From the NCBI GenBank assembly GCA_023920165.1, contig CP089276.1:2232001-2296000 (forward strand): a DNA stretch of 64,000 nt. Reading direction: 5' to 3'. The first letter of the stretch is position 1; each line of letters starts with the position of its first letter. This DNA is from Curvularia clavata (taxonomy: Eukaryota). The notes under the pieces were generated by a model, which worked only from the letters and a program-made list of their open reading frames with translations, searched no databases and had not been told where the DNA came from. The position numbers and the translations under genes were made by a program. Positions 1 to 16,718 of this stretch are shown here, in pieces.

Positions 1-251
1 TTGGACGGCACTGCGTTTTCTCTCCCGTACCATTGTCGTTCCGGATTTGCATTGGCGCCTGCTTTATATACTTATCATGCGCGTGCTCACCTTTTTTTGC
101 CCATTTTTTTGCCATTATGCCATGTCACCAAGCACCCAGTCTTATATTTGTTAGTCCGCGCGTTTACTGTGAGAGGGTTATCAGTCAGATTGGGCAATTT
201 CCTATGGTCTCTGTGCTGTAAATAATATTCCCGTTGTAGTCGGTGGTAGAC

Positions 252-3200
252 ATGGCGAAGAAAAAGATCAACAGCAACAAGAAGAGTCAGAAACCAGTGG
301 AGTCTGCTTCTCCACCTGACTTTGTGCCAACCAACACGGGGGAGCCAGTCCCCAGCCCGCTTGAAATCCCAATGCCAGCAGAGCCGCCCGCCACGGACGC
401 ATCGTCCGGGGAGCAGTCAGTGCTAGTGGAGCCTGTCAAGCGTAGTATTCCCAAGTCGGTGGAAACGTCCACATTTGTATCTTCAACACACCTCGACAGT
501 TCACAGTCTATTCCCCACAAGGCTGCAGGCCCATTAGCTGCTGAAAGCACATCTGCACACCAAGATCCACCTATGAAGACACAGCAGGAGCTCGACTCCC
601 AAATAGCACCAATCCAAGCCACACAATCCGGTATAGCCAACGACAACGTCGAGGAACTTCATCCTGCCGCCAATGAAATTGAACAACCATCCATTCAACG
701 GTTCCATGGCAAACCAGAAACAGGTCGCATTCTAGATCCAGAGCCTCCTCTGGAAGAGGAGCACGAGGCTATACAGCCAATCCAAGACCTCACATCCACG
801 ACCGTGCTTCCGAGGTCACAGCTTCTCCCAGCTCCGGAATTGCCTGGGGAACTCCACGCGGATATCGAATCTCTGGGTGAACCATTTACTATTGTGGCAC
901 CTGAGGCGACACCAGAAGACTTTGCACAGAGCATTCCAGCCGACACGGAAGCTGCACCTGTCCAGGAAGGGCAGATGGAAATACCTGCCGGTCAAACGCG
1001 AGCAAAGTCTCCTCATATGGTGGCGTTCGACATTCCCGAAGCACCCACAGCACCCACAGCACCTGAAGTACAGATAGCTGAGCCAACAGAGCCAATAGAG
1101 ATTGCTGGTGGAGCTATTGATAGCGACCCAGTAAAAGAAACACCATCAGCATACCAAGAAAAGGCTCAGTCTCTTCCGGATTCCGATCATCATGGGGAAG
1201 ATCCAACAAGCAACGAGCCATTCGATGTGGCCGAGGAGCAGAGAATACTGCTGGAGGTGCCTGAGGCGCCCCCTTTGCAACCCGAGTCATTTGTCAGCAC
1301 AGGTCCGATAGAAGATGCCGCCAACCCAGCCGCAGAGCCTACGGTCTCTTTTCATGGTGAAGAAACTGAAGCACCTGCCGACATCCAGACAGCACATGAA
1401 GAAAGATGGCATCAGAGGAGAAGAGTACCACATAGATTCGAGCAGCACAGCATAGTAGAAGAGAGTGTAATTCCTCCAGAGGTGGCTCAAGATTCCCGGG
1501 AAACAGATGCTGAGGTTTACTGGCAACAAGGTCAGCATGAAAGGCCGGATCAAGGGAAAACTAGGTGGAAGAGGAGAGAGAACGAAGAGGCCGGGGCGAT
1601 AGGACTGCTACAAGAGCTTGAGCGGGAAATACACGAGGAGCAGACTCAAGAAGAGATGGAAGCAGCTCAAGTGGTTGATGAAGCTCAAGAGGAACCCGAA
1701 ACGAAGACCGAGGAACAGAAAGAGTCTGAGAAAAGACAGCGAGAAAGCGCCATTCGTGAGCGAGTCGAGAGAGAGACTTTAGAGCAAGTGTTCGAAGCCA
1801 AGAGGCTCCTGGCTCTGATGGAGCAGGAAATACGTGCTAATGAGGCCCAAGAGGAGATTGAAAAGGCCGCGCTTGCCGAGAGGGCCAAGAGGGAGAATGA
1901 GCAGCTCGAGTACAAGCAAATGCAGCGTGAGAGGCTTGAGCAGCACCGAAGGGACATGGAGGCTCGGATGGCCGCAGGTGGCGCTACAAGCGCTCAAAAA
2001 GAGGCTGATCAAATCGAGGCTGCCCGGAAAGCCATTGAAGAGGCTACACGTGACCGAATACCCAATGGTGTCGGCCCATGTCCCATGCCACCCTCAGCAG
2101 CTCAACAACGATGGCCAGCTGATGAACCACCACCACGTGCCGAGACACCTCCATCGGCGGTAAATGGTGCACACAACCGCTCTCCGAGCCAGTCCGATCG
2201 CCCCTTTAGATCTTATCGGTCTTTTGCGCCACATGCACGGAAGCTTCGAACGCAGGAGGCGGGCCCATATCCGCCCAAACCATATGCCTTAACCCATTCT
2301 CTAGAGGATGACATACCAGCTGCACCCAGCCCACCCGTAAGTAGGGTACGACCGAGGTATGTATAGTTTGTCTCTTTTCCTAGTTCTCCAATCATGTTCC
2401 TCGGCTGTTCCTCGGCAGCCACGCCTCCACGGGCGTTGGTGTAAGGTGACGTCTCTGCAAGCAGAGAAATGGTGCAACATAGTGGACGCTCTGTTTGGCT
2501 AACGATGCATCTTCCTGCAGGTATGCTCCTACTTTTGACAGCGACGACGATTCGGAATTCAGCCTAGTACCGAATGGGATAGCGTCAAGACGGCCATTTA
2601 GCGGTGAAGCGCATGAAGTGTCGAGGGCCCACATGGTCCCGCATCAACCACGTAGCGTTTTTGCATCCCGAGTACCTCTGGAACCGGCCTATCCCGCCCC
2701 TCCGCCAAATTACCATCCCAGCTACCATGCCCCGCCATCCCAGCCGCCTCACTACCCAAATCATGGCTACGCTATGAGTCAGCAGGGTTGTCCCGCCCCT
2801 AACCCCAATCCTTACGGCCCTTCGTCACCCTCTTCCTCCTCTCCATACCAAGAAGCATGGAGCCAATACCCACCAGGGTATCCTCCTTACGGTAGTTCAC
2901 ACCATCAGCAGGACTCTTCGGGTTCTAGAGACTATCCTCTGCATGCTTTAGAGGGCCGCCCTGCCATCGAAGACGGGCCTGGTGACGTTTACGGACGCAT
3001 CGCACAGTCGATACCTCCTGACCTGTCTCTACTGCTTGCACGTTACCAAGACACTCACAGTCAGCTAAGCGCAAAAGAAGACCTACTCCGCCGAGCAGGC
3101 GCCGAGAAGGAGGAGAAGCTGAGAGCAAAGGATGGTGAGATTTTTGAGCTGAAAGAGAAGATTCGCACCTTGGAGAATAGGCATTCAGCAGAGGCAAACC

Positions 3201-6200
3201 GACTGCACTTCCAAATTGGTAACCTGGAAGACCAAGTCAGGGACCTTCGCGAGCAGATTGCCGAAAACAAAAAGGCAAAGGAAGAAGCCGAGGAATTACG
3301 ACGGGGATTTTATGCAGCAATGAAGTCTTGGGAAGAAAGATACAGGGAGCTGGAAGACGTCCATCGCGCCTTGGAAAGGAGTACGGCCGAGGAGAGAGAA
3401 CGAACATGGAGGGACTTTGATGAGTGGAAGTCTACGACAAACACAAAACACGATGCGGAGAAGATCGCTCTTGCTATCCAATTCGACAAGAAACTGAAGA
3501 AGGCCGAAGCCGCTGCTGAAGAATGGCGACAAGAAGCTGCTGAGGCGTCTGAACTTCGCGCAAGGCTTGAAGAAGCCCTGCAGCGTGAGCGGGACAACCA
3601 TGAATCCTGGGCGACTGAGCGCGAATGTCTTATCAGAGAGCGTGACTACTTCCAGAAGACCTGCGCAGAACAGCGCGAGCTCCTAGAAACGCAGCACCTG
3701 CAAACTGAAGGCCATTCAGACATCTTCAAGAAGGCCGTCGAGGAAGCTGCTAGAGCAGACGGCCTGGCACAAGAGAAGGACGAACTGATGAAGCAATACG
3801 AACAACTCAAGGCTGAGAGTCAGCAAGAGAAGGAGCTCATCAAGAGCGTTGCTAGCAACCTCGAGTCCGAGAAATCCAGGCTAGAGAAGATGATGGAATG
3901 CTATGGAGACATTGCAGAGATCAAGAGCAAAGGCGACGCCTACTAGTAAGTGATCCCATCCCATCTTTGTTTTGCTAGGCGTCCGCACATGTCGCTAGAT
4001 GAGGATCTGGCATTTGCCGATTCCCGCAATGCGTAGCACCTGATTGTAACTGGAAGCTGGTTGCTAACTGGTCATCAGCCTATCATCCTTCTCTCATCTG
4101 CAAAAACAAATCATCGATCTAGCAACAACCCACTTTGTCCACCTACCAGTACGGCCGCCCCCAGAGGATCTGGGTCAAGTGCCTTCTAATCTGCCATCGT
4201 TCCTCGGTGATACCATTGCTTCCAGGTAAGCATGATAATTGCAAACTAAAGATCGCTTACTAACCGGATGACCCTATTACAGACAAGTTCGAGCTGCATA
4301 CATAGCTCACACAGTGGCTAAGCTGATCACCTATCGCGTCTTCGGTCCTTTCCTGTTCAGTCTTGGTCGTCGTTACGACAAAGCTGATTCGCTGTTTTCT
4401 TCTATGAGCCATCACATCCGCGAGAAGAGTACACGAAAGGAAGCGATCTGGCGTCAACAGACACTTCTTGCAGCTTTCACAAGCTCAGGCGCTAAGCAGC
4501 GTATCAACACTGCTGCTGGAACAGTTGTAGAAGAGATTGTCAACGCCATCAAGCACTTTGCCGACCCAAGGGAAGAAGAAGGTATCAAGGTTGCAGTGAA
4601 ACGCATAGTGAAGCTTGCTGCAGAGACATGGAGATTCGCACGCCTCGAACGCGAAATGATCACCGCAGTCATGCCCGCTTTGCATGATGTAGAGCATCAG
4701 TTCACCGGTAGCCAGTATTGGCCAGCTTACAAGCCAGACGACGTAACAGGGTCTGCAATGGACACCTCGCCCACCGAATCGCGCCCACAGTTACTTCTAC
4801 GAATGTTCCCCGTTGTCTTCCGAGAAGCCAAACACGAAAACTTCCAGATCAACGGCGAGCCGCGCGACGAAGGATGCGTTCTCCACCATGGACTCGCTTT
4901 GTATGATGATTCCGAGCCCGTAGTAGCAAGGCTCGAGGAGCTCAAATCTGCTGGTTTGCCATCCCATACCACTCTATTAACGAGTCCGACTGACGAGGGC
5001 AAGTTTCCGGCGCCGGTACGTAACACAACCCGCGTGTGTTTACTTCACCCCAACGCTCTCCTTGGTATTTTCGAGCACCACCTGACCACTGCAACATCCA
5101 CGAACTGCTACAAACGCTCCCGACACGATACTTATTGCATAGAAACGCTTGGCTAACATCTTGCTGTTGCAGGCATGCCCCCCTCCCCGAGACGAGCAAC
5201 CAAACCCCACCGCTCCTCGTTCCCCAACCAAACCCGAGATGAGCACGGCTGAGAAACCCCACCTACGACCACGTCCAACGTCACCGACCGAAAAGCCAGA
5301 CAAGCCAGACAAGCCAGAGAAACATGAGAAGTCTTCAGCCATTAAGCGGGCGTTGAGCCTTTTCTCTGGTCCTTTGCTGGACGACAATAAGACCGTAAAG
5401 CCGCCTCTCTCCACATACTCACATATGCCGCCGCCACCACCGCCGACATCTGTCTTTACATCTCCCAGGAACATTATTGGTATGCCAGTCGAAAGTCTGG
5501 ACGCTTCACAGCCACCAAGCTCAAAGCGAAAGCCACCACCACCACCCCCTAAGCCTGTATCCAAGCCGGAGGTGCCATCGCCTTTGGGAGGAGCTTCGCA
5601 CCATCGGGCTTCGTCGGAGAGTGCGGCTTTGCCAACGTCCTTTTCTCGAACTACAACCGACGAAACTGTCTCGTACCAGGATGTGGAGCCCGACACCTGC
5701 CCTCCTACCCCTGTGGACACAGTATCGCCGGTTTACGATGCGATTGACGAGATTGAGAGTTTGTTACCTCAACGAACGCGCACGGCCTCTACTACACACT
5801 CACGCCGTCGCTCCACGCACACACGCCGATCTGGCGAATCGGCTATTGATGATGAGCTCGATGATGTTATTCCTCGACCAGAATCTGTCCGTCGAAGGAG
5901 CACCTATGCTTCTAGCGTCCGTACATACAAGTCTGCCGACACGGAGCGTACGGATAGGAGTGAGCGTACAGACAAGAGTGAACGTACCGAGAAGAGTGAA
6001 CGAACCGAGAAGAGCGAACGCACAGACAAGAGCGAACGTACGCACAAGAGCGAGCGTACCAGCCGGACAGAGAAGAGTGATCGCTCGGATAAAACCGAGC
6101 GCGAGAAGGCTCGCTATTTGTACGAAAGCCGAAGCGCAGGTGTCAAAGCCCTGTACCCCAGTCCTGCGACAGGCCAAAGTGGGAATGGAAGTACTAAGAA

Positions 6201-7596
6201 TTCCTCTCGAAATGAGAAGAGCGAGAGGAGGAAGGACCGCGGCAGCAAGGACTCGACAAAGGATTCGAAAGAAGCCAAGAGGGAGTCGCGTGAGATCAGA
6301 AGGATGAGAAGCGTATCTGATAGTGGCACTTGGGATACGAACAGTGTCTTCACTCACAACGATTTCGCACCTACTACAGTCTCAACCAATGTACCCTACC
6401 CACACGCCTATGATTCCAGACGGGACTCGAAAGAGGTTAAGCGGGAATCAAAGGAGATCAGGAGGCAAAGAAGTATCTCTGATGCTGGAACATGGGACAC
6501 TGCCAGCGAGGTTACTAGACTTCCTCCGCCCACGACCGTGTCGACCAACGTCCCTTACCCGACAGGACTGGCTTGGGAACTGCGACGAACAAGGAGCATC
6601 CCTGATGATGCCACCTGGGATACTAGTAGTGAAATCACTCAGCGTGCGCCCGAGACTACTATTTCGACCAACATTCCATATCCTATGGGATTTTCGCGCG
6701 AGTCCAGGAGAATGAGTGTCTCCGATGCTGGCACATGGGATACTGAGAGCGTTTTCACGCAACGCGCTCCCCCTACGACGGTTTCGACGAATGTGCCGTA
6801 TCCGACAAACTTTTCCATGACGGATGTCTCTCACGTACCTCCCTCGCCAAGGCAGATTAGAAGACTCAGTGTTTCTGACGCAGGTACATGGGATACTAAC
6901 ACTGAAATCACAACACATCGCCCACCACCTACGACGGTATCGACCAATATTCCTTACCCGACAAACTTCTCCATGAGTGACCTTTCTTCCGTGCCTCCAT
7001 CACCACACCAGCTAAGGAGGCTCAGCGTGTCCGATGCTGGCACTTGGGACACTAATACGGAAATTACGACGTATCGTCCCCCTCCTACGACAGTGTCAAC
7101 CAATGTGCCATATCCCGCTGGCATGCCTCGAGAGCTCAGAAGGCTGAGCGTCTCTGATGCTGGCACATGGGATACCGATAGTGTCGTTACGCACCGTGCT
7201 CCGCCTACGACAGTGTCAACCAACATCCCCTATCCAAGTGGAGGATTTGGAGGACCCGCATCTTCGGTCCACTTGCCGGGACCTTTTGAAAGATTGAAGA
7301 GAGAATCTGAGCAGCAGAGTTTCTCTGACGATGGCTCCGACTCTGGCACTTGGGATACGAGCAGTGAGATAACTCATGCTAACAATGGACCTGCTACAAT
7401 CGTCTCCGCCAACGTTCCTTACAAGTCTCAGAAACCACCAAAGCCCCCGAAGCCCGACCGGCCCAGGTTCTTGAGAAGCAAAACCAGCCTGTCTGACGCG
7501 GGAACTTGGGATACCAACAGTGTGATTACGAATAACGACATGAAAACGACTGTTTCGACCAACGTTCCATATGCATCTGAACGACGATTTCGCTAG
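252..7596 (+). CDS. Large (~2,300 aa) low-complexity/coiled-coil protein with 9 C-terminal GTWDT...STN(V/I)PY repeats; 5 exons; function unknown
   Basis: ORFs 243-2366, 2495-3946, 4314-5156 and 5149-7596 are joined by GT..CTAAC..AG introns (approx. 2357-2520, 3946-4078, ~4225-4281, ~5034-5172). Phase at intron 1 is consistent (AG|G TAT). Confidence 0.7.
5941..6105 (+). repeat. Coding 18-bp tandem repeat (SERT(D/E/H)K hexapeptide)
   Basis: Repeated aagag(t/c)ga(a/g)cg(t/a/c)ac(a/c/g)ga units; translation SERTDKSERTEKSERTEKSERTDKSERTHK. Confidence 0.9.
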
Positions 7597-8192
7597 ATGA
7601 GCACAGCGAAGGGACATGATTCCATCTCATTTCCGCAATCTTTGTTTTCTCTGGGTCTTATACCTGTGGAGATGTCTTTTTTCTCTTTCCCGTTTCTTGT
7701 TGTTGACTTGTGGTTTTTCGTATACGTTACCTGCTTTGTTGGATGATTGCACCGGTGACGCATTGAGAAGTGAATGAACATGAGATATATGAAGGATTTA
7801 TACGCATATGAAATATGAGAGTCACGGTCGAGCAAACACGAATTTAAGACAGCAATGCATTGATTTATAGCACGGCGTTTTGTATGTTTTGTATGCCTCT
7901 TTGCCTGCAGTATAGACCAGCTTGTAAGATAGTCAAACACGGGATTTGTTTGCGAACACGGCTTGCTTTTGGTGACAGTGATTGGTGCATGGCGAAGAGG
8001 TAAGGTTGAGGAAGCCCTGAGCCAAACGCCGAGGCTAGCGCGTAATCCCCAGACATCACGATAGAGCTCAAAGCTACCTTCTTGAAACTATCAACCCTAC
8101 GACCCATTTCGACGATCACTCTGCCTACGCCGTCCAAACGTGCCACTACGCGTCAATTGATCGAAACAACCACTAGAGAAGAAGAATTCAAG

Positions 8193-8737
8193 ATGGCCGA
8201 ACCATCTCCTAACCCAGCGCCCGAGACACACGACATGGATACCGCGCTCACAAACGGCGATGCGCAACAACAATCTGCAGATGTAGAAATGGCAGACTCG
8301 ACGACAGAACAACCAGTACTGCTCCCTGTCTTCTGCTCTGACGAGGAGAAAATGCTCCTTCAGACGCGATTATAAAACTAACATGTACTCCTCAACGCCA
8401 GGCCCCAACCGATCCCTCTTCACTACAACCCACCGTACAAACTCAGCCTCCAACACCCTCTCAGGCAGCCGCTCCAACACCGTCCAGCGCGCCCGTCCTC
8501 CCAACCACCACATCAGCGACCACACCCGCCTCATCGCGCAACTCACCGCACCCACCGGCGCAAGCACCCACCGCCCCGATTCCGCACGGCAGCCCGACGA
8601 GAATCTATCTCAACCAGCATGTAACGCCGTATTTGCTCGAGGCGATGAAGCATCTTGCGACGCAGGAGCCTGAGAAACCGTTGAAGTGGTTGAGTGAGTT
8701 TTTAGCGCAGAAGAGTGCGGAGGTAGAGGGGGCTTGA
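8193..8737 (+). CDS. SDC1: Dpy-30 / Sdc1 COMPASS subunit
   Basis: ATG 8193, one intron (~8317-8401). Last exon reads HGSPTRIYLNQHVTPYLLEAMKHLATQEPEKPLKWLSEFL, the Dpy-30 motif; stop TGA 8735-8737. Confidence 0.85.
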
Positions 8738-8953
8738 GAGGGCGAGAGGGATTAAGAGTGAAGGAGAGATTGGGGAACTAAGGAAAGGAGGGACAATAGC
8801 TGAGCGTGTGGTAATGAATCAGAAATGAATGGGAGGAAGTTGTGAAAGTAGTCCAGAATAAGGGACGAGAAAAAAACTCTACAGGATTATAGCATGAGTT
8901 GGCATGCCTTATGCAACAAGGCAAGGACGAAGCAGCAGACAAAGACAATAGTA

Positions 8954-9467
8954 ATGTCAATCCTCGCGTGCCGGGACGCCCGGTGTAACGGGACACTTTT
9001 TCTTCCGGACGCCCGGCATGCTCACACGATATATGTAATTTGGCCGGTTCAATGTGCATCTATACTTTAGCATTAGTCCTCCTACTATATCCCTATCCGG
9101 CATTAGAGAACGCGTTGCTAACTGTGCTGTCGCTCTTTTTGTTAGTGCTGTCGACTAACCCTCTCTAAGAACCTCACTGCTCCTTTACGGCTACGTACAT
9201 TCGCCAAGAGCTCGGCGGGTTAGAGAGCGAGCTGAGAAGGCGAAGATAAAGACTGCCGCCCTAGAAAGTTAATTTAAGGCATAAAGTGTGTAGTCCGGCA
9301 ATTTCTCCGCGCGAAAGGTAGAATCGTCACAACGCAGCTGCCCGGCCGTGCGTCTTAAGCGAGCTTTCAGCCACAATAGCGTGCTGAGATGTCTGCAACA
9401 CTTACTGCGCACTGTGGCTGGGGGTTGTGGCGCTGAGAGTGATATTTCGAGCTGCTGTTATTCCCGG
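8954..9467 (+). repeat. Left long imperfect inverted repeat arm
   Basis: Colinear anchors shared with the reverse complement of 13469-13984: cgtgccgggacgc, ttttcttccgga, agctcgg, aagactgc, tttctccgcgc, ccggccgtgcg, tagcgtgctgagat, tgtggctg, ttattcccgg. Confidence 0.85.
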
Positions 9468-9534
9468 CGCTGCAACTCTAAAATAAATTTGTTATGCTGC
9501 TAAATACACTAATGAGGTGATATAAGCTGTGCAT

Positions 9535-12500
9535 CTAGCTAAATACTACCCGCTCAGCTTCTCCTATACTTCGACCTCCCCGTCTAGAACTTGCTAGTCG
9601 AGACTGCTTATGTGACAAAAGCACTTCGCTACGGTGTTGGCGACATGCTCGGGTAGTAGGGTGGTACTCTCCAAGGACAACGCTGTACCCGTCACACGCC
9701 CTGTTGTATAGGTTAAGAGATTCCTTGTAGTTACAGAGCGTTGCAAGCAGGTGAGCAAGGCAGTACACGCTAGAAAGCGTGTCGGGGTGCTCGCGTCTAA
9801 GCACCTTCTCTCTTGCTTCCAGCGCTCGTCGATGCATCGCTTCTGCCTCCTCGTACTTGCCCTGGCTTTCTAGCACCGACCCAAGGTTGCTGACGCTGGT
9901 GAGCGTGTCAGGGTGCTCGCGCCCAAGCACCTTCTCTCTTGCTTCCAGCGCTCGTCGATGCATCGCTTCTGCCTCCTCGTACTTGCCCTGGCTTTCTAGC
10001 ACCGACCCAAGGTTGCTGACGCTGGTGAGCGTGTCAGGGTGCTCGCGCCCAAGCACATTCTCTCTTGCTTCCAGCGCTCGTCGATGCATCGCTTCTGCCT
10101 CCTCGTACTTGCCCTGGCTCTCTAGTACCGACCCAAGGTTGCTGACGCTAGTGAGTGTGTTAGGGTGCTCGCGCCCAAGCACTTTCTCTATTGCTTCCAG
10201 CGCTCGTTGATACATCGCTTCTGCCTCCTTGTACTTGCCCTGGCTCTCTAGCACCGACCCAAAGTTGCTGACGCTGGTGAGTGTGTCGGGGTGCTCGCAC
10301 CCAAGCACCTTCTCAGATCCTTCTAGATCTCGTCGATGCATCGCTTCTGCCTCTTCGTGCTTGCCCTGTCTCGATAGCACCGACCCAAGATTGCTGACGC
10401 TGGTGAGCGTGTCAGGGTGCTCGCGCCCAAGCACCTTCTCTCTTGCTTCCAGCGCTCGTCGATTCATCGCTTCTGCCTCTTCGTACTTGCCCTGTCTCGA
10501 TAGCACTAACCCAAGATTGCTGACGCTGGTGAGCGTGTCAGGGTGCTCGCGCCCAAGCACCTTCTCGTATCCTTCTAGATCTCGTCGATACATCGTTTCT
10601 GCCTCCTTGTACTTGCCCTGTCTCGATAGCACCGACCCAAGGTTGCCGACGCTGGTGAGCGTGTCAGGGTGCTCGCACCCAAGCACTTTCTCTCTTGCTT
10701 CTAGCGCTCGTCGATGTATCGCTTCTGCCTCCTTGTACTTGCCCTGGCTCGATAGCACTAAGCCAAGGTTGCTGACGCTGGTGAGCGTGTTGGGGTGCTC
10801 ACGCCCAAGCACCTTCTCAGATCCTTCTAGATCTCGTCGATGCATCGTTTCTGCCTCTTCGTACTTGCCCTGGCTTTCTAGCACCGAACCAAGGTTGCCG
10901 ACGCTGGTGAGCGTGTCAGGGTGCTCGCGCCCAAGCACCTTCTCTCTTGCTTCCAGCGCTCGTCGATTCATCGCTTCTGCCTCCTCGTACTTGCCCTGGC
11001 TTTCTAGCACCGACCCAAGATTGCTGACGCTAGTAAGTGTGTCGGGGTGCTTGTTACCTAGTACTCTCCTCCTCGACTCTATTACTTGTATATAGAGGTC
11101 TTCAGCTCTCTTATATTGTCCATCATTCTGTAGAGCCCTAGCGCAATCTTCTGCAAGGTCTGTTCTCTTCTCGTTATCGTTCTTCTCACTATGCGACAGT
11201 GCATATTGAGCGTGCGGCAGTAGTCGCCTCCATTTGCTTCTATTACTGTAGTCGCTGTTTGGAAACACCTGAAGTAGCTGCGTGACTGCGCGTTGAGTGT
11301 ATTCGTGAAGCCGTCTCTGTATCTGCAGCTGCTCTCGTAAGGATTGGTGCACCAATCGATGCACGTCAAATGCTGACTCAGCAGGTCGCCTTGTGACGAG
11401 CGCATACCTGTCGAGTATCATGATCGCATCTACACGGGCCTGCGGCGAAGCTGCCTTAAGCAGATCGAGCGGAATGTCCTTTCGGTCTACGCACGCAGCA
11501 ACGTAAAGCTGCTCTATAGCAATAGCGTTGCTCTGCTGGACTTGACCTATAGAAAGAGATAGTGTAGCAGCTACAGCCTTTCTCAGACCAGACTCTCCCT
11601 GCTCGTCTTCACGCAAGTCATTGCTGTACTTAAGAGTTGCTTGGTCGTGCTCGTGTAGTCGTGCTTGGTACTGCTGCACTGTTATGTTGCTTGCGTTTAT
11701 GCACGCTGCCGCTTGCGATACTGCTAGAGGCAGGTACGATAGTTCTCTTAGCAAGTGTATGGCTCTCAGCTGCTCAGCATCGGAGAGCGGCGTCGTCAAA
11801 CGGGATTGCAACATCCTTAGCGCCGTGTCTGACGCCAGCTCACCCAGCGCTACTACATCTTGTGGAGCAAGCGTCTTAGCCGTGTCGCTTTCTATTGTTG
11901 TGAGAATAACAGAACACAGCTTAGAGTGCGGCAGAAAGTCGGCCAAGCCTGTAGCTTCTGCCGTTGGCGAGCCACTATGCTGGATAGTTGTGCCCTCGAC
12001 GTTGTCGAAGATTAGCAAACACTGCTGCGTACTTAGCTTTGCTATGCAACGTTTCACAATCTGCTCTATGTCTGCCTGGTCACCGTCACAACCAGGAACG
12101 CCGAGCTTCTGTGCAACACTAACATAGGACTGGTCGAAACTGTCTTTGCCGCTCGCATCGATCCAGAAGACCGAACAATGCTTGTATTTCTCTAGTGTTC
12201 TGTATGCAACCTCGAGCGCGAGCTGCGATTTACCTGTTCCGCCAGGCCCGACTATTGCAAGCGTCGAGGTAGTCTGTGTGTTGCTGAACAGCTTCGCTTC
12301 TAGTTCAGCGAGCTGTAGTTCGCGACCCACAAAAGACTTGTTGCGCGCAAAGGGAATGATCGACGGTGCGCGGCCGGCTCTCTCCACTTCAGCCTGCAGT
12401 CTTTCCAACGCACTCTCCCTTCCTTCGCCATAGGTTGCAGGCATAGAGACGCCAAGAAGTCCAAGCAGGCAGTATACCATATCTTCTGTCTCGGTCGTTT

Positions 12501-13110
12501 CGCGACCGCTAACCCATCGCATGCGCTCAGATGTGCTGAACTGGTTGAGAGGATGGTTGCGCAGCGCTGCAAGCGGAATCCCGGTGATGGTGTGCAGTAG
12601 TTGGTCGAGAGAGGCTTTGTCGCCTATGCGTTGCCCTTCGCACGAGAAGAACTCCACAGATGCTGGCGCTATCAGCTCCTGCAGCGTCCATCCGCGAGTG
12701 AACCACTTGCTCTGCCGAAGAGATACATTCCGGTCCCTGCATAAGACAGATTCTGTCGAGGTCGAGGTCGACGCCGACACATCTGACAAGAAAACGTAGC
12801 ATCGTACCGCATTCTTGTACCACTGGAACATCGAGTTGATCGCCTTAGAGCGCTCACTATTGTTCCATCTGTCGATGCAGCATGTGTCAATCCAGAAGTA
12901 CTGCAGCCCGTCTTGAGCTGCTTGTTCGGCACAGAACTGTAGCTTCTGGTAGCCCTCCTCTTTCTTTTCGTAGTTTCTATTAAGTATATCTTCAATAAGA
13001 ATCTCAGAGTCGCCCCATCGGTGCGATAGAATAGCGTAGGGCGGGATTGGCTTGCCGCGAAAGTCTGTCAGGATTAGTCTGCCCGATGCGCCTAAATGGA
13101 GGAGCCGCAT
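9535..13110 (-). CDS. Fungal NLR: HET domain + NB-ARC + TPR repeat protein (1191 aa, intronless)
   Basis: HET motifs YAILSHRWG, YFWIDTCCID, AINSMFQWY, WFTRGWTLQEL. Walker A GPGGTGKS, Walker B LLIFDN, LPLAV motif. 42-aa repeats HPDTLTSVSNLGSVLESQGKYEEAEAMHRRALEAREKVLGRE. Confidence 0.95.
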   Translation of the reverse strand: MRLLHLGASGRLILTDFRGKPIPPYAILSHRWGDSEILIEDILNRNYEKKEEGYQKLQFCAEQAAQDGLQYFWIDTCCIDRWNNSERSKAINSMFQWYKNAVRCYVFLSDVSASTSTSTESVLCRDRNVSLRQSKWFTRGWTLQELIAPASVEFFSCEGQRIGDKASLDQLLHTITGIPLAALRNHPLNQFSTSERMRWVSGRETTETEDMVYCLLGLLGVSMPATYGEGRESALERLQAEVERAGRAPSIIPFARNKSFVGRELQLAELEAKLFSNTQTTSTLAIVGPGGTGKSQLALEVAYRTLEKYKHCSVFWIDASGKDSFDQSYVSVAQKLGVPGCDGDQADIEQIVKRCIAKLSTQQCLLIFDNVEGTTIQHSGSPTAEATGLADFLPHSKLCSVILTTIESDTAKTLAPQDVVALGELASDTALRMLQSRLTTPLSDAEQLRAIHLLRELSYLPLAVSQAAACINASNITVQQYQARLHEHDQATLKYSNDLREDEQGESGLRKAVAATLSLSIGQVQQSNAIAIEQLYVAACVDRKDIPLDLLKAASPQARVDAIMILDRYALVTRRPAESAFDVHRLVHQSLREQLQIQRRLHEYTQRAVTQLLQVFPNSDYSNRSKWRRLLPHAQYALSHSEKNDNEKRTDLAEDCARALQNDGQYKRAEDLYIQVIESRRRVLGNKHPDTLTSVSNLGSVLESQGKYEEAEAMNRRALEAREKVLGREHPDTLTSVGNLGSVLESQGKYEEAETMHRRDLEGSEKVLGREHPNTLTSVSNLGLVLSSQGKYKEAEAIHRRALEAREKVLGCEHPDTLTSVGNLGSVLSRQGKYKEAETMYRRDLEGYEKVLGREHPDTLTSVSNLGLVLSRQGKYEEAEAMNRRALEAREKVLGREHPDTLTSVSNLGSVLSRQGKHEEAEAMHRRDLEGSEKVLGCEHPDTLTSVSNFGSVLESQGKYKEAEAMYQRALEAIEKVLGREHPNTLTSVSNLGSVLESQGKYEEAEAMHRRALEARENVLGREHPDTLTSVSNLGSVLESQGKYEEAEAMHRRALEAREKVLGREHPDTLTSVSNLGSVLESQGKYEEAEAMHRRALEAREKVLRREHPDTLSSVYCLAHLLATLCNYKESLNLYNRACDGYSVVLGEYHPTTRACRQHRSEVLLSHKQSRLASSRRGGRSIGEAERVVFS
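9780..11050 (-). repeat. Ten high-identity 126-bp TPR-coding tandem repeats
   Basis: Near-identical 126-nt units visible directly (e.g. gtgtc(a/g)gggtgctcgcgcccaagcacc recurring every 126 nt). Confidence 0.95.
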
Positions 13111-13468
13111 AGTGCTTGCAGCTCGGACTTTAGTCTAAAGAACTAGAGGCATGAACAACTTTTGTGGTAGATGAGTGAGAGCAGAATGTTAGCAGGCGTA
13201 GAATGGCATCTTTTCGATAAAGCAGAGAAGGAAGCCTGGTGAGGCAGTGCACACAACCGGGCTGAAGATGCTGCTGGCTGCATCAAGCGCCCAGCGTTCT
13301 GCACTGCCTCCCCTCACCATTTACACTAAGGCAGTATTTGCCTTGCAAACTCATGACAGAAGAGTGTATATGTAGGTAAGGTGCTAGCAAAATAGCTAAC
13401 TCATCTATAAAGGTTATCGTTATAGCGTCTCGCCTGGCTCTATGCGACGGGGGCGGCTGCCTATACGG

Positions 13469-13984
13469 CCCGGGAATAAGAGCTGTCTAAGGTCAGGCGA
13501 TGAGTGAGAGCCGCAGCTCTCAGCCACAGCGCGCAACCTATCGCAGATATCTCAGCACGCTACCGCTGCTAAACGCCGCTAAAGTCGCACGGCCGGCTTG
13601 CCACGTTTTGACGATGTTGTCGCCAGCGCGGAGAAACTGCTGGGATTCACACTCCTTACGTTAAGTCGACTTTTTAAGTGTGCAGTCTTGATCTTTGCTA
13701 TTTTAACTTTCTTTCTAGCCTACCGAGCTATGTAGAATTTTATACTGTCGCGAATAAATAAGGGCGTATTGGAGGAGAGTCGATAAACGGCACTGACAGA
13801 ACGAGCGATAGCATAGCTAACAACACGCTTTTTGGCGTCGGAGGGTGATATACTGGAAGAGCAAGAGCTGTAAAATAGATACGCATTGTGCTTGTCTATT
13901 TTTGAGTACGTTACACGCAACCCGAGCATCCGGAAGAAAAGGTGTCCCGTCACACCGTGCGTCCCGGCACGGAGGGACGGACGT
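13469..13984 (-). repeat. Right long imperfect inverted repeat arm
   Basis: Reverse complement aligns colinearly with 8954-9467 and ends ...GGACGT|TA. Confidence 0.85.
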
Positions 13985-14272
13985 TATGGCTAACATGATG
14001 TTTAAAAGAGCCAAGCGGCATAGCTGGAGTCTCAGAAATGCACAGGGCAGGCGTCATATGGAAAAGATACCCCAAGTCAAACAGCATCAAGATCATCACA
14101 AACACATTCTGGCGCTCTGAATTCAATTGGGTATATTCATCTTTCGATGATGCTTTTTGATTCATTCCGTATCGTGATGCTGCTAGATATGCGTAAAGCA
14201 AGCATCCATGCCCATGAACTCCACGTAAATGTCTTCCATCACGAATACCAGCCACACCAATCCTACATCTGC

Positions 14273-14950
14273 TTATGCGACGAGGGTAGAGGCGGTGGCG
14301 CTCTCGTACCTCCAGGTAGGGGGGAGGGCACCGACGGTCTTGTAGTAACGGGAGAGCTGAAAGAAACATTAGCTTGTGCTGATGCTCAGGTCTTTGGGCT
14401 GAACTTACACGGTGGATACGGGACTCGATGAGAATGAGGCGGAACTTGCTGTCCCTGTCCTTGCGGTTGGTGGAAAGGTGCTTGCGGACGGCAACAGCCT
14501 TCTTGATGAGCATGTAGAGGTCCTCTGGGATATCGGGGCTCAGGCCTTTATGCGCAAAATGTTAGCCTAGACCAACAAATGCAGATTTGTATAGCGCGCA
14601 GGTGCTCATTGAGAGCAGAGCTGTGTCGACGTGCGCTTTCATGTGCAGGGAATCATCGTACCGTTCGACTTGAGGATGCGGAGGATCTTGTTGCCGGTAA
14701 CGACCTTGACCTGGGCGACACCGTGAGAGTCACGGAGGACCTCACCGATCCTACGATTCCGTCAGCACATAATTCCTCTCCTTCAGATATTTCGTTCGGC
14801 TTACTGAGAAGGAGTGGCACCCTTCCTGGCGAGCTTGCAGATCTGGTCGACAACCTGCTCGGGGGTGGTCTTCAACCACGCAGGGGGGTTGCGGGAGTAG
14901 GGGATAGCAGAGGCTGATATGCCCTTTCCGTTGCTGTGAAGACGACCCAT
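14273..14950 (-). CDS. RPS13: 40S ribosomal protein S13 (uS15), 4 exons
   Basis: [15 protein letters not shown]..., [34 protein letters not shown]-terminus [11 protein letters not shown]. Three GT-AG introns. Confidence 0.97.
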
Positions 14951-15119
14951 TTTGAATGAATGTACCGGGTGGCGAGCTGGTCGATTAGTACGAAGTCGTG
15001 TGGAAGGCTTGAAGTCGTGTTGTTGGAAGTTCGCGATCCGAAGACCAATTTCTCGCGGCTCGGCTAGGTGTGTGGTGGACCGTGCACAGGCTTAGCGTCA
15101 AAGCTCCTCTTGCTAGACA

Positions 15120-15560
15120 AAAAGTCTGCGAACCTCATCTTCTTCCATCTCAACTTCAGAACTGTTTTCCTCGGTATGGCACAACCATCTTCGGGCTTTG
15201 TTGCAGCCGGATGCGCGCCACACCTTGGTGTTTTCTGATATTGCTCTGTCGGGCGCAGGCTACTAATACACAGCGCAGGCTCTGCCGAACTTCCAAAAGG
15301 TACGTGATACAACACCCTCTTTTGTCTTTGGCACAGTGATGATCCACCAAAATTATTTTCTGATACCTCTTATTTTAGGCGAGGCCTTCGGGTCTTGCCG
15401 GTGCATTCAACTTATATTCTGAAATGTGTTACTCAGTCTCTTACTTTGATTCCGTTCGCGTAAAGAAACATAGACTGACTAGAAACAGATGATTGGATTG
15501 GAGAATACGCTGGAACAAGTGGTTGATCGGAGACTTTGCCCGCATTTGAGTTTCCACAAA
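15120..15560 (+). ncRNA. Putative spliced non-coding snoRNA host transcript divergent from RPS13 (ends approximate)
   Basis: Intron A 15174-15273 (GTATGG..TACTAAT..CAG), 26-nt exon, intron B 15300-15488 (GTACGT..CTGAC..CAG). No convincing spliced ORF. Confidence 0.55.
15330..15430 (+). ncRNA. Box C/D snoRNA (intronic)
   Basis: Box C GTGATGA 15336-15342, D' CTGA 15360-15363, box D CTGA 15419-15422. Terminal stem GGCACA/TGTGTT. Internal 9-bp hairpin GGCGAGGCC-TTCG-GGTCTTGCC. Confidence 0.75.
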
Positions 15561-16718
15561 CTATGGTATATGTTGTAGGGAGCGCTTTGCTGTCCGTTCT
15601 GGGCTTTTGTTGGTGGGAGTGCTCTCAGGTCTTTGGGATATGGCTTCTCTCCATTTCAGGTTGACATACAACCGCGTTTTACTTATGATACCCAATCTAC
15701 TATTCATCTCATGTCTTGCGCCCATCATTGCATCATACTCTGCGCCGAATTGATTGAGCTACAACCTTCCCGTGACACGCCCCACAAAACAGCAATCAGT
15801 GCGGCTTGTTCTCTCTACGCGGAGATAGAGGATGGTGCTATTGAAACTGGCAATACACCGACGAGGTGATATAAGATAATGGTCCGAACGGATTCTACTT
15901 CGTATACTACACGGATTGGTGGATGACAACGTTTAGCTCCACGTGACGCGATCTGCCCATCCCAGCACAGACGTCAACCCGGGACAATGCTTTCGAACAT
16001 TGAAGCAGTCGGATAGATGCCATGATTCAGAGATCAATAATGGAGACAGCTGCGTGTAGTCACCACATGGCATCGTGAATGAGGCTCCTCGGCTAGCCAA
16101 AAGGAACGGCTGCTAGTCACGTGTGCAGACGGCAACTACACAAGATGCAAACAAGGCTGGTGATGGTGCTGAAAGCATTTGCATATGCTCACCGGACGGA
16201 CATGAGATCAGGCCGGGGAAAATGCACGGTTGATGACATACTGGGGCGAGAGCAGCGATTGCAGACGGGTGGCAAAGCGGTTGCTAATCGGCTTGTGATT
16301 GCTCGACGGCGGTTGGGCTTGCCAAAGCGGGCACAAGAAACCGAGGTCTGTCACGATTCAGCCTCTGAAAGACCCCCGTATCCCAGCCGACGGCAATGCG
16401 CATCGCACTTGGTCATCTCCCTCATCCCACAACTGCCAGCAACCACCTCTTTGCTGTTCTTCATCTACTCAACCCGCCGTACTGCGAGTGAGCGCGTGCG
16501 TGCAGTCACGGTCGACGCGGACCCGCGAACTGGCGATTGAAGCCCCCGGCCTAGGCACATTCCCCGCAAGCAGTCGCCTCCGTTGAATCGCCGCTACTGC
16601 CAGCCTCTCAACCTTTGCACGTCCTCTCCGCCTCGACGCCATCCACCCCATTTCGTCCGGATTCATTGTTGTTTGCGCGCAGAAGGCACAAGGACACAGA
16701 GAAGACACGCAGCCCATC

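What the first reader, a model, noticed from the sequence alone, without database searches (positions are those of the whole stretch)
8954..13984. A TA-flanked, long-TIR element whose only cargo is an intact fungal NLR immune/incompatibility gene
Seen: the HET-NB-ARC-TPR gene is enclosed by ~515-bp inverted arms (8954-9467, 13469-13984). Both arms end at a TA dinucleotide with A(C/T)GTC termini and carry internal repeated C(C)GGGAC(G/A)C motifs. No transposase is present. The unit lies between the convergent 3' ends of SDC1 and RPS13; removing it leaves an ordinary ~0.5-kb intergenic gap. Known: TA duplication and ACGT-type ends characterise fungal Tc1/mariner-superfamily pogo/Fot1 elements, and HET-NOD-TPR proteins are fungal NLRs involved in non-self-triggered cell death. 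Inference: this is a non-autonomous 'Pack'-type transposon that moves a complete NLR with its promoter. That would be a route for NLR dispersal, presence/absence polymorphism and possibly new vegetative-incompatibility loci.
Basis: partly seen in the sequence, partly recalled or inferred. Interest (0 to 1): 0.88.

Follow-up and report, generated by a model that had tools for sequence, protein, structure and literature searches.

The report
NLR gene inside a pogo-type transposon
An intact fungal immune-receptor (NLR) gene sits inside a transposase-less member of a cut-and-paste transposon family whose relatives elsewhere also carry NLR genes, which gives a concrete way for such genes to spread in fungal genomes.

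Summary
About 515-bp inverted arms (8954-9467 and 13469-13984; 67.5-69% identical, blastn E 1e-31) enclose one intact 1191-aa HET-NB-ARC-TPR gene. TA flanks both ends. The unit sits in a gap of about 0.5 kb between a Dpy-30/SDC1-like gene and RPS13. A motif scan of metagenome contigs found 16 loci with the same arms. All 21 termini read [unrelated flank]-TA-A(T/C)GTC..., and none shares the window's flanks. All 11 arms with readable interior lead into an NLR gene or a transposase: 9 into an NLR, 2 into a DDE_1 (pogo/Fot1, Tan1-like) transposase. In L007 that transposase is followed by a HET-NACHT-WD40 gene. L002 is the same layout without the transposase. One arm-plus-NLR unit occurs at 99.95% identity beside two unrelated flanks. 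In three named fungi, gene models fuse this transposase to NLR modules. The window element is therefore a non-autonomous member of a long-armed pogo/Fot1-type family whose usual passenger is an NLR. It more likely arose by loss of the transposase than by 'Pack' capture. This copy looks old. No empty site or copy count in its own genome could be obtained. I found no paper describing NLR-carrying TIR transposons in fungi.

The parts
8952..8953 (.). TA dinucleotide flanking the left terminus (putative target-site duplication copy)
   Evidence: Sequence. TA precedes 21 of 21 family termini. In a nested insertion the uninterrupted homologue has TA at the junction.
8954..9467 (+). Left arm (long terminal inverted repeat), next to the 3' end of the NLR gene. 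The terminal ~45 nt are the conserved TIR core, with CGGGACRC motifs at 8972-8979 and 8989-8996.
   Evidence: It has 3 of 45 mismatches to the family terminal consensus. It is 66-71% identical to arms in the 12 of 16 metagenome loci where the match runs beyond the terminal core.
9535..13110 (-). Intact single-exon NLR gene, 1191 aa: HET (residues 25-116), NB-ARC (266-486), 11 TPR_10/12 repeats
   Evidence: Residues 1-700 are 85-93% identical to proteins of Exserohilum turcicum, Bipolaris maydis, B. victoriae and Curvularia clavata.
9641..11200 (-). Array of 11 copies of a 126-nt (42-aa TPR) unit with high internal conservation
   Evidence: spacing 126 nt; the 9 central copies are 87-95% identical to the reference, the 2 outer ones 66-73%.
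13111..13468 (-). Upstream (promoter/5'UTR) region of the NLR gene, inside the element but outside the inverted homology
   Evidence: Position only. The part 13216-13455 is also present in the long 3'-side arm of locus L009. Promoter function is inferred.
13469..13984 (-). Right arm (long terminal inverted repeat), upstream of the NLR gene, with CGGGACRC motifs at 13942-13949 and 13959-13966
   Evidence: It has 8 of 45 mismatches to the family terminal consensus, the most of 20 termini. It is 65-74% identical to arms in the 15 of 16 loci where the match runs beyond the terminal core.
13985..13986 (.). TA dinucleotide flanking the right terminus
8342..8737 (+). Last exon of the left neighbour (Dpy-30 motif, SDC1-like); stop at 8735-8737, 214 nt before the TA
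   Evidence: PF05186, E 1.3e-11
14273..14947 (-). Right neighbour RPS13 (exons with Ribosomal_S13_N and Ribosomal_S15); stop at 14273-14275, 286 nt after the TA
   Evidence: PF08069 E 2.7e-20; PF00312 E 1.4e-9

Best explanation
Window 8954-13984 is a non-autonomous member of a family of cut-and-paste DNA transposons of the pogo/Fot1 (Tan1-like, DDE_1) branch of the Tc1/mariner superfamily. The family has unusually long (~0.5 kb), imperfect inverted arms. The segment between the arms is a complete NLR gene.

Inferred mechanism: a transposase supplied in trans by an autonomous relative binds the conserved terminal ~45 nt (ATGTCAATCCAAGCGTGCCGGGACGCACGGTGTAACGGGACAC, which holds the CGGGAC(G/A)C motifs). 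It excises the whole arm-NLR-arm unit and reinserts it at a TA. The NLR travels with its own upstream region (13111-13468 plus the inner right arm). Its terminator region lies in the 68 nt before the left arm and in that arm.

Autonomous relatives appear to be two-gene elements: arm, transposase, HET-NLR, arm. The window element and L002 are forms that have lost the transposase.

Shown: the family, its termini, the TA flanks, the link to a DDE_1 transposase, the NLR cargo, and one unit at two sites. Inferred: the transposase-DNA contacts, the TA duplication, that transposase and NLR lie within one pair of arms in L007, and that this particular copy arrived by transposition. It probably arrived long ago and is probably no longer mobile.
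For: (1) Dispersed family. A 24-specified-base motif from the arm termini found 16 metagenome loci. 16 of 16 carry arm homology: 65-74% over 190-805 nt where more than the terminal core aligns, and 82-92% over the terminal 49-76 nt. 0 of 16 match the window's flanking genes.

(2) Sharp ends. 21 of 21 termini (20 distinct flanks, since L001 = L011) read unrelated flank, TA, A(T/C)GTC(A/G)ATCC. The top-base frequency is 0.375 in the 10 flank positions and 1.0 at TA.

(3) Mobility. L010 155-3799 equals L012 1-3645 at 99.945% (HET-NACHT-ANK gene plus arm). The identity stops exactly at the terminus, and the flanks beyond it are unrelated. The arms of L004 and L008 are 96.7% identical and also have unrelated flanks.

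(4) Nested insertions at TA. In L007 one member interrupts the arm of another. The uninterrupted homologue in L013 (89% identical) reads GAGATA|GCAAAG where L007 reads GAGATA|ATGTCGATCC. In L002 the right arm is cut by another member at 7982.

(5) Transposase. L007 3342-5156 is a 605-codon open frame with DDE_1 (PF03184, E 1.2e-29) lying about 0.54 kb inside a terminus. That terminus's first 49 nt are 92% identical to the window's left arm. L001 has the transposase N-terminus at the same distance from its terminus. The protein is 73-74% identical to DDE-1/CENPB-type proteins of Pyrenophora, Bipolaris and Curvularia, and 70% identical to a protein named 'transposase tan1'.

(6) Cargo. Of 20 distinct termini, 11 have readable interior. 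6 adjoin the repeat (3') end of an NLR gene, 3 adjoin a HET N-terminus, and 2 adjoin the transposase. 0 of 11 lead to anything else.

(7) Two-gene architecture. The blocks upstream of HET in L002 (6938-7178, 7311-7414) match L007 2548-2792 and 2922-3025. The inner right arm of L002 (7567-7981) matches L007 5167-5578 at 77%. The transposase ORF lies between these blocks in L007 only. The two NLRs are 71% identical.

(8) Arms inherited as a pair. Same-side arms of different elements are 77-80% identical (L002c-L007B, L002a-L014, L002a-L013). The two arms of L002 are 61% identical to each other.

(9) Independent support from named genomes. Of the 4 long proteins that match the transposase, 3 are gene models that fuse it to NB-ARC-TPR or NACHT-WD40 modules (Cladosporium fusiforme, Pseudogymnoascus australis, Phaeosphaeriaceae sp.). 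The transposase part is N-terminal in 4 of 4, the same order as in L007.

(10) Context. The window is otherwise housekeeping genes with no other transposon.
Against: No genome is held for the window. So the copy number, partner transposase and paired copies in its own genome are unknown. No empty site was seen.

The two window arms are only 69% identical. The right terminus has 8 of 45 mismatches to the consensus, the worst of 20. The two arms are not each other's nearest relatives: WIN_R is 74% identical to L012a and 66% to WIN_L. A composite origin is therefore not excluded, and present mobility is doubtful.

Homologues at 85-93% amino-acid identity in several Pleosporaceae genera fit long vertical residence.

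A TA duplication is not proven, because both junctions of one insertion together with its empty site were never seen. The nested case is only about 16:1 in favour of TA being target-derived.

All family evidence comes from metagenome contigs of unknown organisms, which may be mis-joined at repeats. Conservation of TIR positions 18-43 is partly forced by the search pattern.

The left end of the L007 element lies off the contig. That transposase and NLR share one pair of arms is therefore inferred from L002, not seen.
Confidence: 0.8

Rival explanations
1. A resident NLR gene happens to be bracketed by two independent insertions, in opposite orientation, of solo arms or short relics of this transposon family. 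The NLR was never cargo.
For: The window's arms are not each other's closest relatives and differ in decay: 3 vs 8 mismatches of 45 to the terminal consensus, and branch lengths 0.37 vs 0.21. Family members do insert close to and into one another (L007, L002, L012).
Against: The same geometry recurs. 9 of 11 informative arms adjoin an NLR gene end-on with the terminus facing outward. L002 has both arms around one NLR. The near-identical L010/L012 unit includes NLR plus arm up to the exact terminus. Low left-right identity is a family trait (61% within L002), not evidence of separate events.
Confidence: 0.07
2. The arm-NLR-arm units are relics of an ancient transposon. They now spread only by host processes (segmental duplication, ectopic recombination between arms, gene conversion) and not by transposase. 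The window copy arrived that way.
For: The arms are old and imperfect (69%). A 2026 study of Podospora proposes ectopic recombination between flanking transposons as one route of NLR duplication (PMC13449251, passages seen). No empty site with a TA duplication was seen.
Against: Copy boundaries fall exactly at the terminus next to TA in 21 of 21 cases. A 99.95% identical unit ends at that base beside different flanks. An open 605-codon transposase frame has relatives at 90-98% identity in clusters of 4 to 44 member sequences. Recombination would not give such precise, TA-bound ends.
Confidence: 0.07
3. The arms are not mobile DNA. They are a conserved inverted regulatory or UTR module of an NLR gene family, copied along with the genes.
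For: The arms always sit next to NLR genes. The inner part of the right arm lies where a promoter would be.
Against: Homologous arms lead into a DDE_1 transposase in 2 loci. The ends are sharp and TA-flanked. One arm is inserted inside another. The window's neighbours are unrelated housekeeping genes.
Confidence: 0.03

Closest known systems
Fungal pogo/Fot1-type Tc1/mariner elements (Fot1, Pot2/Pot3, Tan1 of Aspergillus niger; names recalled, except 'transposase tan1', which a source gives to a hit)
   Same: DDE_1 (PF03184) transposase, with a weak Tc5/CENP-B-type HTH hit (E 0.015, below cut-off). Inverted termini. TA at every junction.
   Different: The arms are about 0.5 kb and imperfect, rather than the few-dozen-bp TIRs I recall for Fot1-like elements. 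The elements carry a complete 3.5-6 kb NLR gene. The window copy has no transposase.
Transduplicating DNA transposons of Pyrenophora tritici-repentis (hAT with histone H3-like gene; Tc1/mariner element with an extra ORF), Manning et al. 2013, PMC3538342 (passages seen)
   Same: Pleosporales. A non-transposase ORF is held between the TIRs of a Tc1/mariner-superfamily element together with the transposase gene and is multiplied with it.
   Different: The cargo there is a coiled-coil-domain ORF or a histone H3-like gene, not an NLR. 'NACHT' has 0 occurrences in that paper's main text.
Starships, giant fungal cargo transposons that often carry NLR genes (Gluck-Thaler et al. 2022, PMC9156397: search listing and abstract start only; also as cited in PMC13449251)
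   Same: Mobile elements of Pezizomycotina that move NLR genes.
   Different: As I recall, Starships use a tyrosine-recombinase 'captain' and measure tens to hundreds of kb. Here the unit is 5 kb, has TIRs and a DDE_1 partner, and carries one gene. No recombinase domain lies in the element.
Pack-MULE / Pack-TIR elements of plants and animals (recalled; PMC8277862 seen only as a search listing)
   Same: Transposase-less TIR element with host-type coding sequence between the arms.
   Different: As I recall, Pack elements mostly hold gene fragments captured by non-autonomous elements. Here the gene is whole, and an autonomous relative already carries an NLR, which points to transposase loss rather than capture.
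Fungal DNA transposons encoding a TET/JBP dioxygenase (PMC12730594; search listing and abstract start only)
   Same: Fungal DNA transposons that regularly carry a second, non-transposase gene.
   Different: A different gene, and as far as I recall different transposon lineages. No immune-receptor cargo is mentioned in the part seen.
High-internal-conservation (HIC) fungal NLRs such as het-e/het-d/NWD of Podospora (PMC13449251 passages; PMC4986451 listing only)
   Same: HET-NOD-repeat architecture with near-identical tandem repeats. Reported enrichment of transposon sequence in the 2-kb flanks (23.4% vs 2.4% for random genes).
   Different: In Podospora the link to transposons is statistical and the mechanism is left open. 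Here the NLR lies within a defined transposon.

Membership tests
Tc1/mariner superfamily, pogo/Fot1 branch (non-autonomous member) | Terminal inverted repeats shared with an autonomous element | tested here: met
   The window arms are inverted (E 1e-31). The terminal 49 nt of the transposase-bearing L007 element are 92% identical to the window's left terminus.
Tc1/mariner superfamily, pogo/Fot1 branch (non-autonomous member) | DDE_1-type transposase with an N-terminal CENP-B/Tc5-type DNA-binding region in the autonomous partner | tested here: met
   L007 ORF: PF03184 E 1.2e-29. HTH_Tnp_Tc5 is only E 0.015, below cut-off. Homologues are named 'HTH CENPB-type domain-containing' and 'transposase tan1' by their sources. 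The partner is from a metagenome contig, not from the window's genome.
Tc1/mariner superfamily, pogo/Fot1 branch (non-autonomous member) | TA target-site duplication | tested here: inconclusive
   TA lies on both sides of the window element and at 21 of 21 termini. TA is present at the insertion point in the uninterrupted homologue of a nested insertion. No empty site was seen, and no case shows both junctions of one fresh insertion.
Tc1/mariner superfamily, pogo/Fot1 branch (non-autonomous member) | Dispersed copies with different flanks | tested here: met
   20 distinct flanks in 16 metagenome loci plus the window. One unit at 99.945% identity lies beside two different flanks. Not testable in the window's own genome.
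Pack-type (transduplicating) non-autonomous TIR element | Host coding sequence between the TIRs of an element that lacks a transposase | tested here: met
   A whole NLR ORF is the only supported gene between the arms.
Pack-type (transduplicating) non-autonomous TIR element | Cargo acquired by the non-autonomous element (capture), not inherited from an autonomous parent | tested here: not met
   L007 has the transposase followed by a HET-NLR. L002 is collinear with it apart from the transposase. Gene models in 3 named fungi join the transposase to NLR modules.
Starship | Tyrosine-recombinase (DUF3435) captain gene at one end and a size of tens of kb or more (feature recalled) | tested here: not met
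   The element is 5,031 bp. No Pfam domain other than those of the NLR lies in it.
Fungal NLR (HET-NB-ARC-TPR, high internal conservation) | N-terminal HET, central NB-ARC NOD, C-terminal TPR repeats that are nearly identical to one another | tested here: met
   PF06985 E 5.6e-14; PF00931 E 7.3e-9; TPR_10 E 1.6e-147 with 11 stretches. 126-nt units, the 9 central ones 87-95% alike. Cell-death or incompatibility function was not tested.
MITE | Short (under about 0.8 kb), non-coding (feature recalled) | tested here: not met
   5 kb, with a 1191-codon ORF.

The most novel reading that the evidence does not exclude
A clade of pogo/Fot1 transposons spread across several classes of Pezizomycotina is built as a two-gene unit, transposase plus NLR. 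This clade is a main vehicle by which high-internal-conservation NLRs are duplicated, shuffled (HET with NACHT or NB-ARC; WD40, ANK or TPR) and scattered. The NLR is retained because it serves the element itself, for example as a non-self, addiction or defence module. That would be a eukaryotic counterpart of defence genes carried on bacterial mobile elements.
Probability: 0.3. Interest if true: 0.9.

Novelty: new variant of a known kind. Interest (0 to 1): 0.8.

Why it matters
Fungal NLR repertoires turn over fast, vary between strains and include the best-known heterokaryon-incompatibility genes. How the genes move is still open.

A 2026 study of Podospora reports that high-internal-conservation NLRs have about ten times more transposon sequence in their 2-kb flanks than random genes. 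[quoted passage not shown]

Here the link is concrete. The NLR lies between the arms of a defined cut-and-paste transposon family. Relatives carry other NLR architectures, and one carries the transposase as well.

This makes the question testable. One can search fungal genomes for the 45-nt terminus, count paired arms and their cargo, and look for insertion polymorphism and new incompatibility loci. It would also add a small TIR transposon to Starships as a mover of immune-type genes in eukaryotes.

The six searches I ran found no paper describing such elements. The library lacks most subscription journals, so this is not proof that none exists.

Tried and rejected
Own-genome search and download: not available, since the window is eukaryotic.

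Earlier findings of this scan: four look-ups by sequence, words, relatives and genome returned nothing.

Empty site from public runs. I laid 4 of the 23 listed runs (X3, X4, X9, X13) on 6500-16500. They hold short contigs from mixed organisms.
- No joint from about 8953 to 13985 is among the 15 joints shown. 139 more are not shown, so nothing can be concluded.
- X3 has a 444-nt contig identical to 8537-8980, so the left junction exists there.
- In X13, ten contigs reach 8952 and continue with unlike sequences that disagree with one another (agreement 0.43). This fits many flanks but may come from other organisms.
- The summed depth rises 5-11 fold in the bin 8838-9171. By the tool's own warning this is not a copy number.

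RIP as the cause of arm divergence: rejected, with 89 transitions against 69 transversions.

A family-wide split into 'left-type' and 'right-type' arms: the tree is star-like, with 4 of 15 inner branches well supported and no side-specific clades. The split is visible only in the WD40 subfamily.

A second terminus between the transposase and the HET gene in L007: not found. The only match is 20 nt at 85% (E 0.4), and it lies inside the transposase frame.

Coding content inside L004: none recognised.

Further arm copies or termini elsewhere in the window: none. The three extra pattern matches have a mismatch and are at chance level.

Inverted homology beyond 9467/13470 in the window: none. Only L009 shares 13216-13455.

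One search replaced it with blastn.

Starship, MITE and LTR readings were rejected on size, content and arm orientation.


Full report
1. The observation

The inverted arms are real. The repeat finder reports inverted pieces at 8952-9021/13917-13986 (70 nt, 81%), 9363-9396/13543-13576 and 9406-9434/13507-13535. blastn of each arm against the whole 64-kb window finds only the partner arm: 8962-9434 against 13975-13507, 67.5% over 477 nt, E 1.4e-31. A global alignment gives 356 matches, 89 transitions, 69 transversions and 32 gap columns, which is 69% identity. The first 50 columns are 82% identical and a block near column 400-450 is 80%. The near-equal transition and transversion counts argue against RIP as the cause of the divergence.

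The ends read TA-ATGTCAATCC (8952-8963) and, on the other strand, TA-ACGTCCGTCC (13986-13975). CGGGAC(G/A)C occurs twice in each arm at mirror positions. That is 4 of the 6 matches in the window.

Between the arms lies one 1191-codon open frame on the minus strand (13110..9535). Pfam finds HET, NB-ARC and eleven TPR_10/12 repeats. The repeats are eleven 126-nt units; the nine central ones are 87-95% alike and the two outer ones 66-73%.

None of 11 other ORFs in or across the arms has a Pfam hit above its cut-off.

The left neighbour ends with a Dpy-30 motif (stop at 8735-8737). The right neighbour is RPS13 on the minus strand (stop at 14273-14275). Without the unit the two convergent genes would be about 502 bp apart.

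The rest of the window is housekeeping genes (Pex13, NAD-GDH, PDI, Vta1, Sec1, Rax2, ERO1 and others) with no other transposon.

2. The arms belong to a dispersed repeat family

No genome is held for this window. I therefore scanned the metagenome contig collection with a 24-specified-base motif common to both termini. This gave 16 loci.

Every locus carries arm homology: 65-74% over 190-805 nt where more than the terminal core aligns, and 82-92% over the terminal 49-76 nt. Alignments begin at window 8934-8952 or stop at 13971-13992. No locus matches the SDC1 or RPS13 flanks.

When the termini are lined up, 21 of 21 (20 distinct flanks, because L001 and L011 are the same locus) read unrelated flank, TA, A(T/C)GTC(A/G)ATCC...GCGTG-CCGGGACGCACGGTGTAACGGGACAC. 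The commonest base has a mean frequency of 0.375 in the ten flank positions, 1.0 at T and A, and 0.94 over the first 45 element positions. One caveat applies: positions 18-43 were fixed by my search pattern. The TA and the first 17 positions were not.

3. Evidence of movement

L010 155-3799 and L012 1-3645 are 99.945% identical. The stretch covers a HET-NACHT-ANK gene plus its arm. The identity stops at the terminus, and beyond the TA the two flanks are unrelated. The arms of L004 and L008 are 96.7% identical and also have unrelated flanks.

In L007 one member (B, terminus near 5695) sits inside the arm of another (A, terminus near 5983). The uninterrupted homologue of arm A in L013 (89% identical) reads ...GCCGAGATA|GCAAAGATC... 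where L007 reads ...GCTGAGATA|ATGTCGATCC.... So a TA is present in the target exactly at the junction. This is what TA-targeted insertion predicts and would otherwise have a 1-in-16 chance. It does not prove a duplication, because the other junction lies off the contig.

In L002 the right arm is cut 117 nt from its end by a further member that starts at 7982.

4. The transposase

L007 3342-5156 is an open 605-codon frame with DDE_1 (PF03184, E 1.2e-29). There is also a sub-threshold Tc5-type HTH hit (E 0.015). The frame starts about 0.54 kb inside terminus B. The 545 nt between them is a diverged arm. L001 shows the N-terminus of a related transposase (residues 17-50, 53% identity) at the same distance from its terminus.

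The protein has 971 relatives at E <= 1e-20 among the candidates scored. Several metagenome clusters are at 90-98% identity. Named proteins at 70-74% identity come from Pyrenophora tritici-repentis ('DDE-1 multi-domain protein'), Bipolaris sorokiniana and Curvularia clavata ('HTH CENPB-type domain-containing'). A Rutstroemia protein is named 'transposase tan1' by its source. This places the family in the pogo/Fot1 branch of Tc1/mariner. For that branch, insertion at TA is textbook knowledge (recalled).

5. The cargo is always an NLR

Of the 20 distinct termini, 11 have enough interior sequence to read.
- Six adjoin the repeat (3') end of an NLR gene: window left, L002a, L005, L009, L013, L014, with TPR or WD40 repeats.
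- Three adjoin a HET N-terminus: window right, L010, L012a.
- Two adjoin the transposase: L007B and L001/L011.
- None leads to anything else.
- The other nine (L002b, L003, L004, L006, L007A, L008, L012b, L015, L016) are cut off by contig ends or show no recognisable coding sequence.

The architectures differ: HET-NB-ARC-TPR in the window, NB-ARC-TPR in L009 (60% identical to the window protein), HET-NACHT-WD40 in L002 and L007, and HET-NACHT-ANK in L010/L012. The HET domains are 48-50% identical to the window's.

6. A two-gene parent and its deletion derivative

L002 is a complete unit. It has a left arm from 1616, WD40 and HET-NACHT frames on the minus strand (2709-7211), and then the inner 415 nt of a right arm (7567-7981).

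Its HET start and upstream blocks (6938-7178, 7311-7414) match L007 2548-2792 (84%) and 2922-3025 (68%). Its right arm matches L007 5167-5578 (77%). In L007 the 2.1 kb between these blocks holds the transposase. In L002 the corresponding gap is 153 nt. The two NLRs are 71% identical.

No terminus lies between the transposase and the HET gene in L007. The simplest reading is that L007-type elements carry transposase and NLR within one pair of arms, and that L002 and the window element have lost the transposase. This step is inferred, because the left end of L007's element lies beyond the contig.

7. Arms are inherited as an unequal pair

In the WD40 subfamily, same-side arms of different elements are 77-80% identical: L002c-L007B 77% over 413 nt, L002a-L014 79% over 422 nt, L002a-L013 80% over 332 nt. 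L002's own two arms are only 61% identical. Low left-right identity is thus a property of the family and cannot be used to date the window's insertion.

For the window element the picture is less tidy. Its right arm is closer to L012a (74%) and L009 (73%) than to its own left arm (66%). The arm tree is star-like. A composite origin cannot be ruled out.

8. Independent support from named genomes

I searched for proteins longer than 1059 aa that match the transposase. This returned four proteins. Three are gene models joining the transposase, or part of it, to NLR modules:
- Cladosporium fusiforme: DDE_1 at 241-408, NB-ARC at 693-795, then TPR_10.
- Pseudogymnoascus australis: a partial transposase at 1-327, then NACHT-WD40.
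- Phaeosphaeriaceae sp.: the last 145 residues of the transposase, then an unidentified N-terminal domain, NB-ARC and about 14 near-identical TPRs.

The fourth (Dothistroma septosporum) joins the transposase to a protein kinase domain. The transposase part is N-terminal in 4 of 4, the same order and strand as in L007. Only the 8000 candidates sharing most words were scored, so this is a small sample.

9. The window copy itself

Residues 1-700 of its NLR are 85-93% identical to proteins of Exserohilum turcicum, Bipolaris maydis, B. victoriae and Curvularia clavata. Two E. turcicum proteins with the same strain prefix lie on different multi-megabase contigs. The window therefore most likely comes from a member of the Pleosporaceae.

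The gene is intact, and its repeats are kept nearly identical. The termini are decayed: 3 and 8 mismatches of 45 to the consensus, the latter the worst of 20. I read it as an old insertion whose gene has been kept. Whether orthologues sit at the same place in other genera could not be tested.

10. What is known

Starships are reported to carry NLRs (PMC9156397, search listing and abstract start only; also cited in PMC13449251).

Transduplication by DNA transposons in Pyrenophora is described in PMC3538342 (passages seen). It includes a Tc1/mariner element with an extra ORF between its TIRs.

PMC13449251 (passages seen) reports that 23.4% of the 2-kb flanks of HIC NLRs in Podospora anserina is transposon sequence, against 2.4% for random genes. 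It suggests, without a mechanism, that transposons may move these genes. In the window the two arms make up 1029 of the 4000 flanking bases (25.7%). This is my arithmetic and may be a coincidence.

Six full-text searches found no paper describing a pogo/Fot1 or other TIR transposon with an NLR as cargo. The library lacks most subscription journals. I read no supplements, which might list such elements in repeat libraries.

11. Verdict

The origin is more likely transposase loss from a two-gene element than capture. This copy is probably a fossil.

The kind of element, a long-armed pogo/Fot1-type transposon family whose standard passenger is a complete NLR gene, appears to be undescribed. I rate it a new variant of a known kind, with interest 0.8.

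Noticed in passing
L011:1-7980 (outside the element that starts at 7982): The 8 kb flanking this insertion holds further immune-type ORFs: NACHT/NPHP3_N (477-2177, minus), HeLo (2663-3505, plus) and ankyrin repeats (4736-6568, plus). No family arms were detected around them. The element sits in an NLR-rich neighbourhood.
   Followed up: no
L013:339-1925 (+): One open frame holds five WD40 repeats followed by TPR_10 repeats. This combination of two repeat types next to a family arm is unusual. It may be a recombinant NLR C-terminus or a read-through of two genes.
   Followed up: no
P0246 (Dothistroma septosporum, 1189 aa): A gene model joins the C-terminal half of this transposase family (residues 10-226) to a protein kinase domain (513-723). 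The transposon may carry other passengers besides NLRs.
   Followed up: partly
L003:2376-3857 (+), outside the terminus at 3994: A 494-aa ORF with a T5orf172/MUG113 (GIY-YIG-like) domain lies directly beside a family terminus.
   Followed up: no
L002:3036-4567, L007:1-223, L014:1-187: The 126-nt WD40 repeat units of three different loci are 80-91% identical to one another across loci, about as alike as the units within L002 (80-84%). This is the pattern expected if repeats are exchanged or recently shared between family members.
   Followed up: no
window 7535-9534 and 13111-15110: The two arms make up 1029 of the 4000 bases in the 2-kb flanks of the NLR gene (25.7%). This is close to the 23.4% transposon share reported for flanks of high-internal-conservation NLRs in Podospora anserina (PMC13449251). 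It may be coincidence.
   Followed up: no
window 240-7593 (+): Four long open frames (708, 487, 294 and 817 aa) upstream of the SDC1-like gene have no Pfam match at E 1e-6.
   Followed up: no
L009:1813-2607 vs window 13216-13986: The 3'-side arm of L009 is about 795 nt long and aligns with the window's right arm plus 250 nt of the window's NLR upstream region (70.7%, E 3e-103). Ancestral arms may have been longer than 515 bp, and the window's left arm may be shortened.
   Followed up: partly
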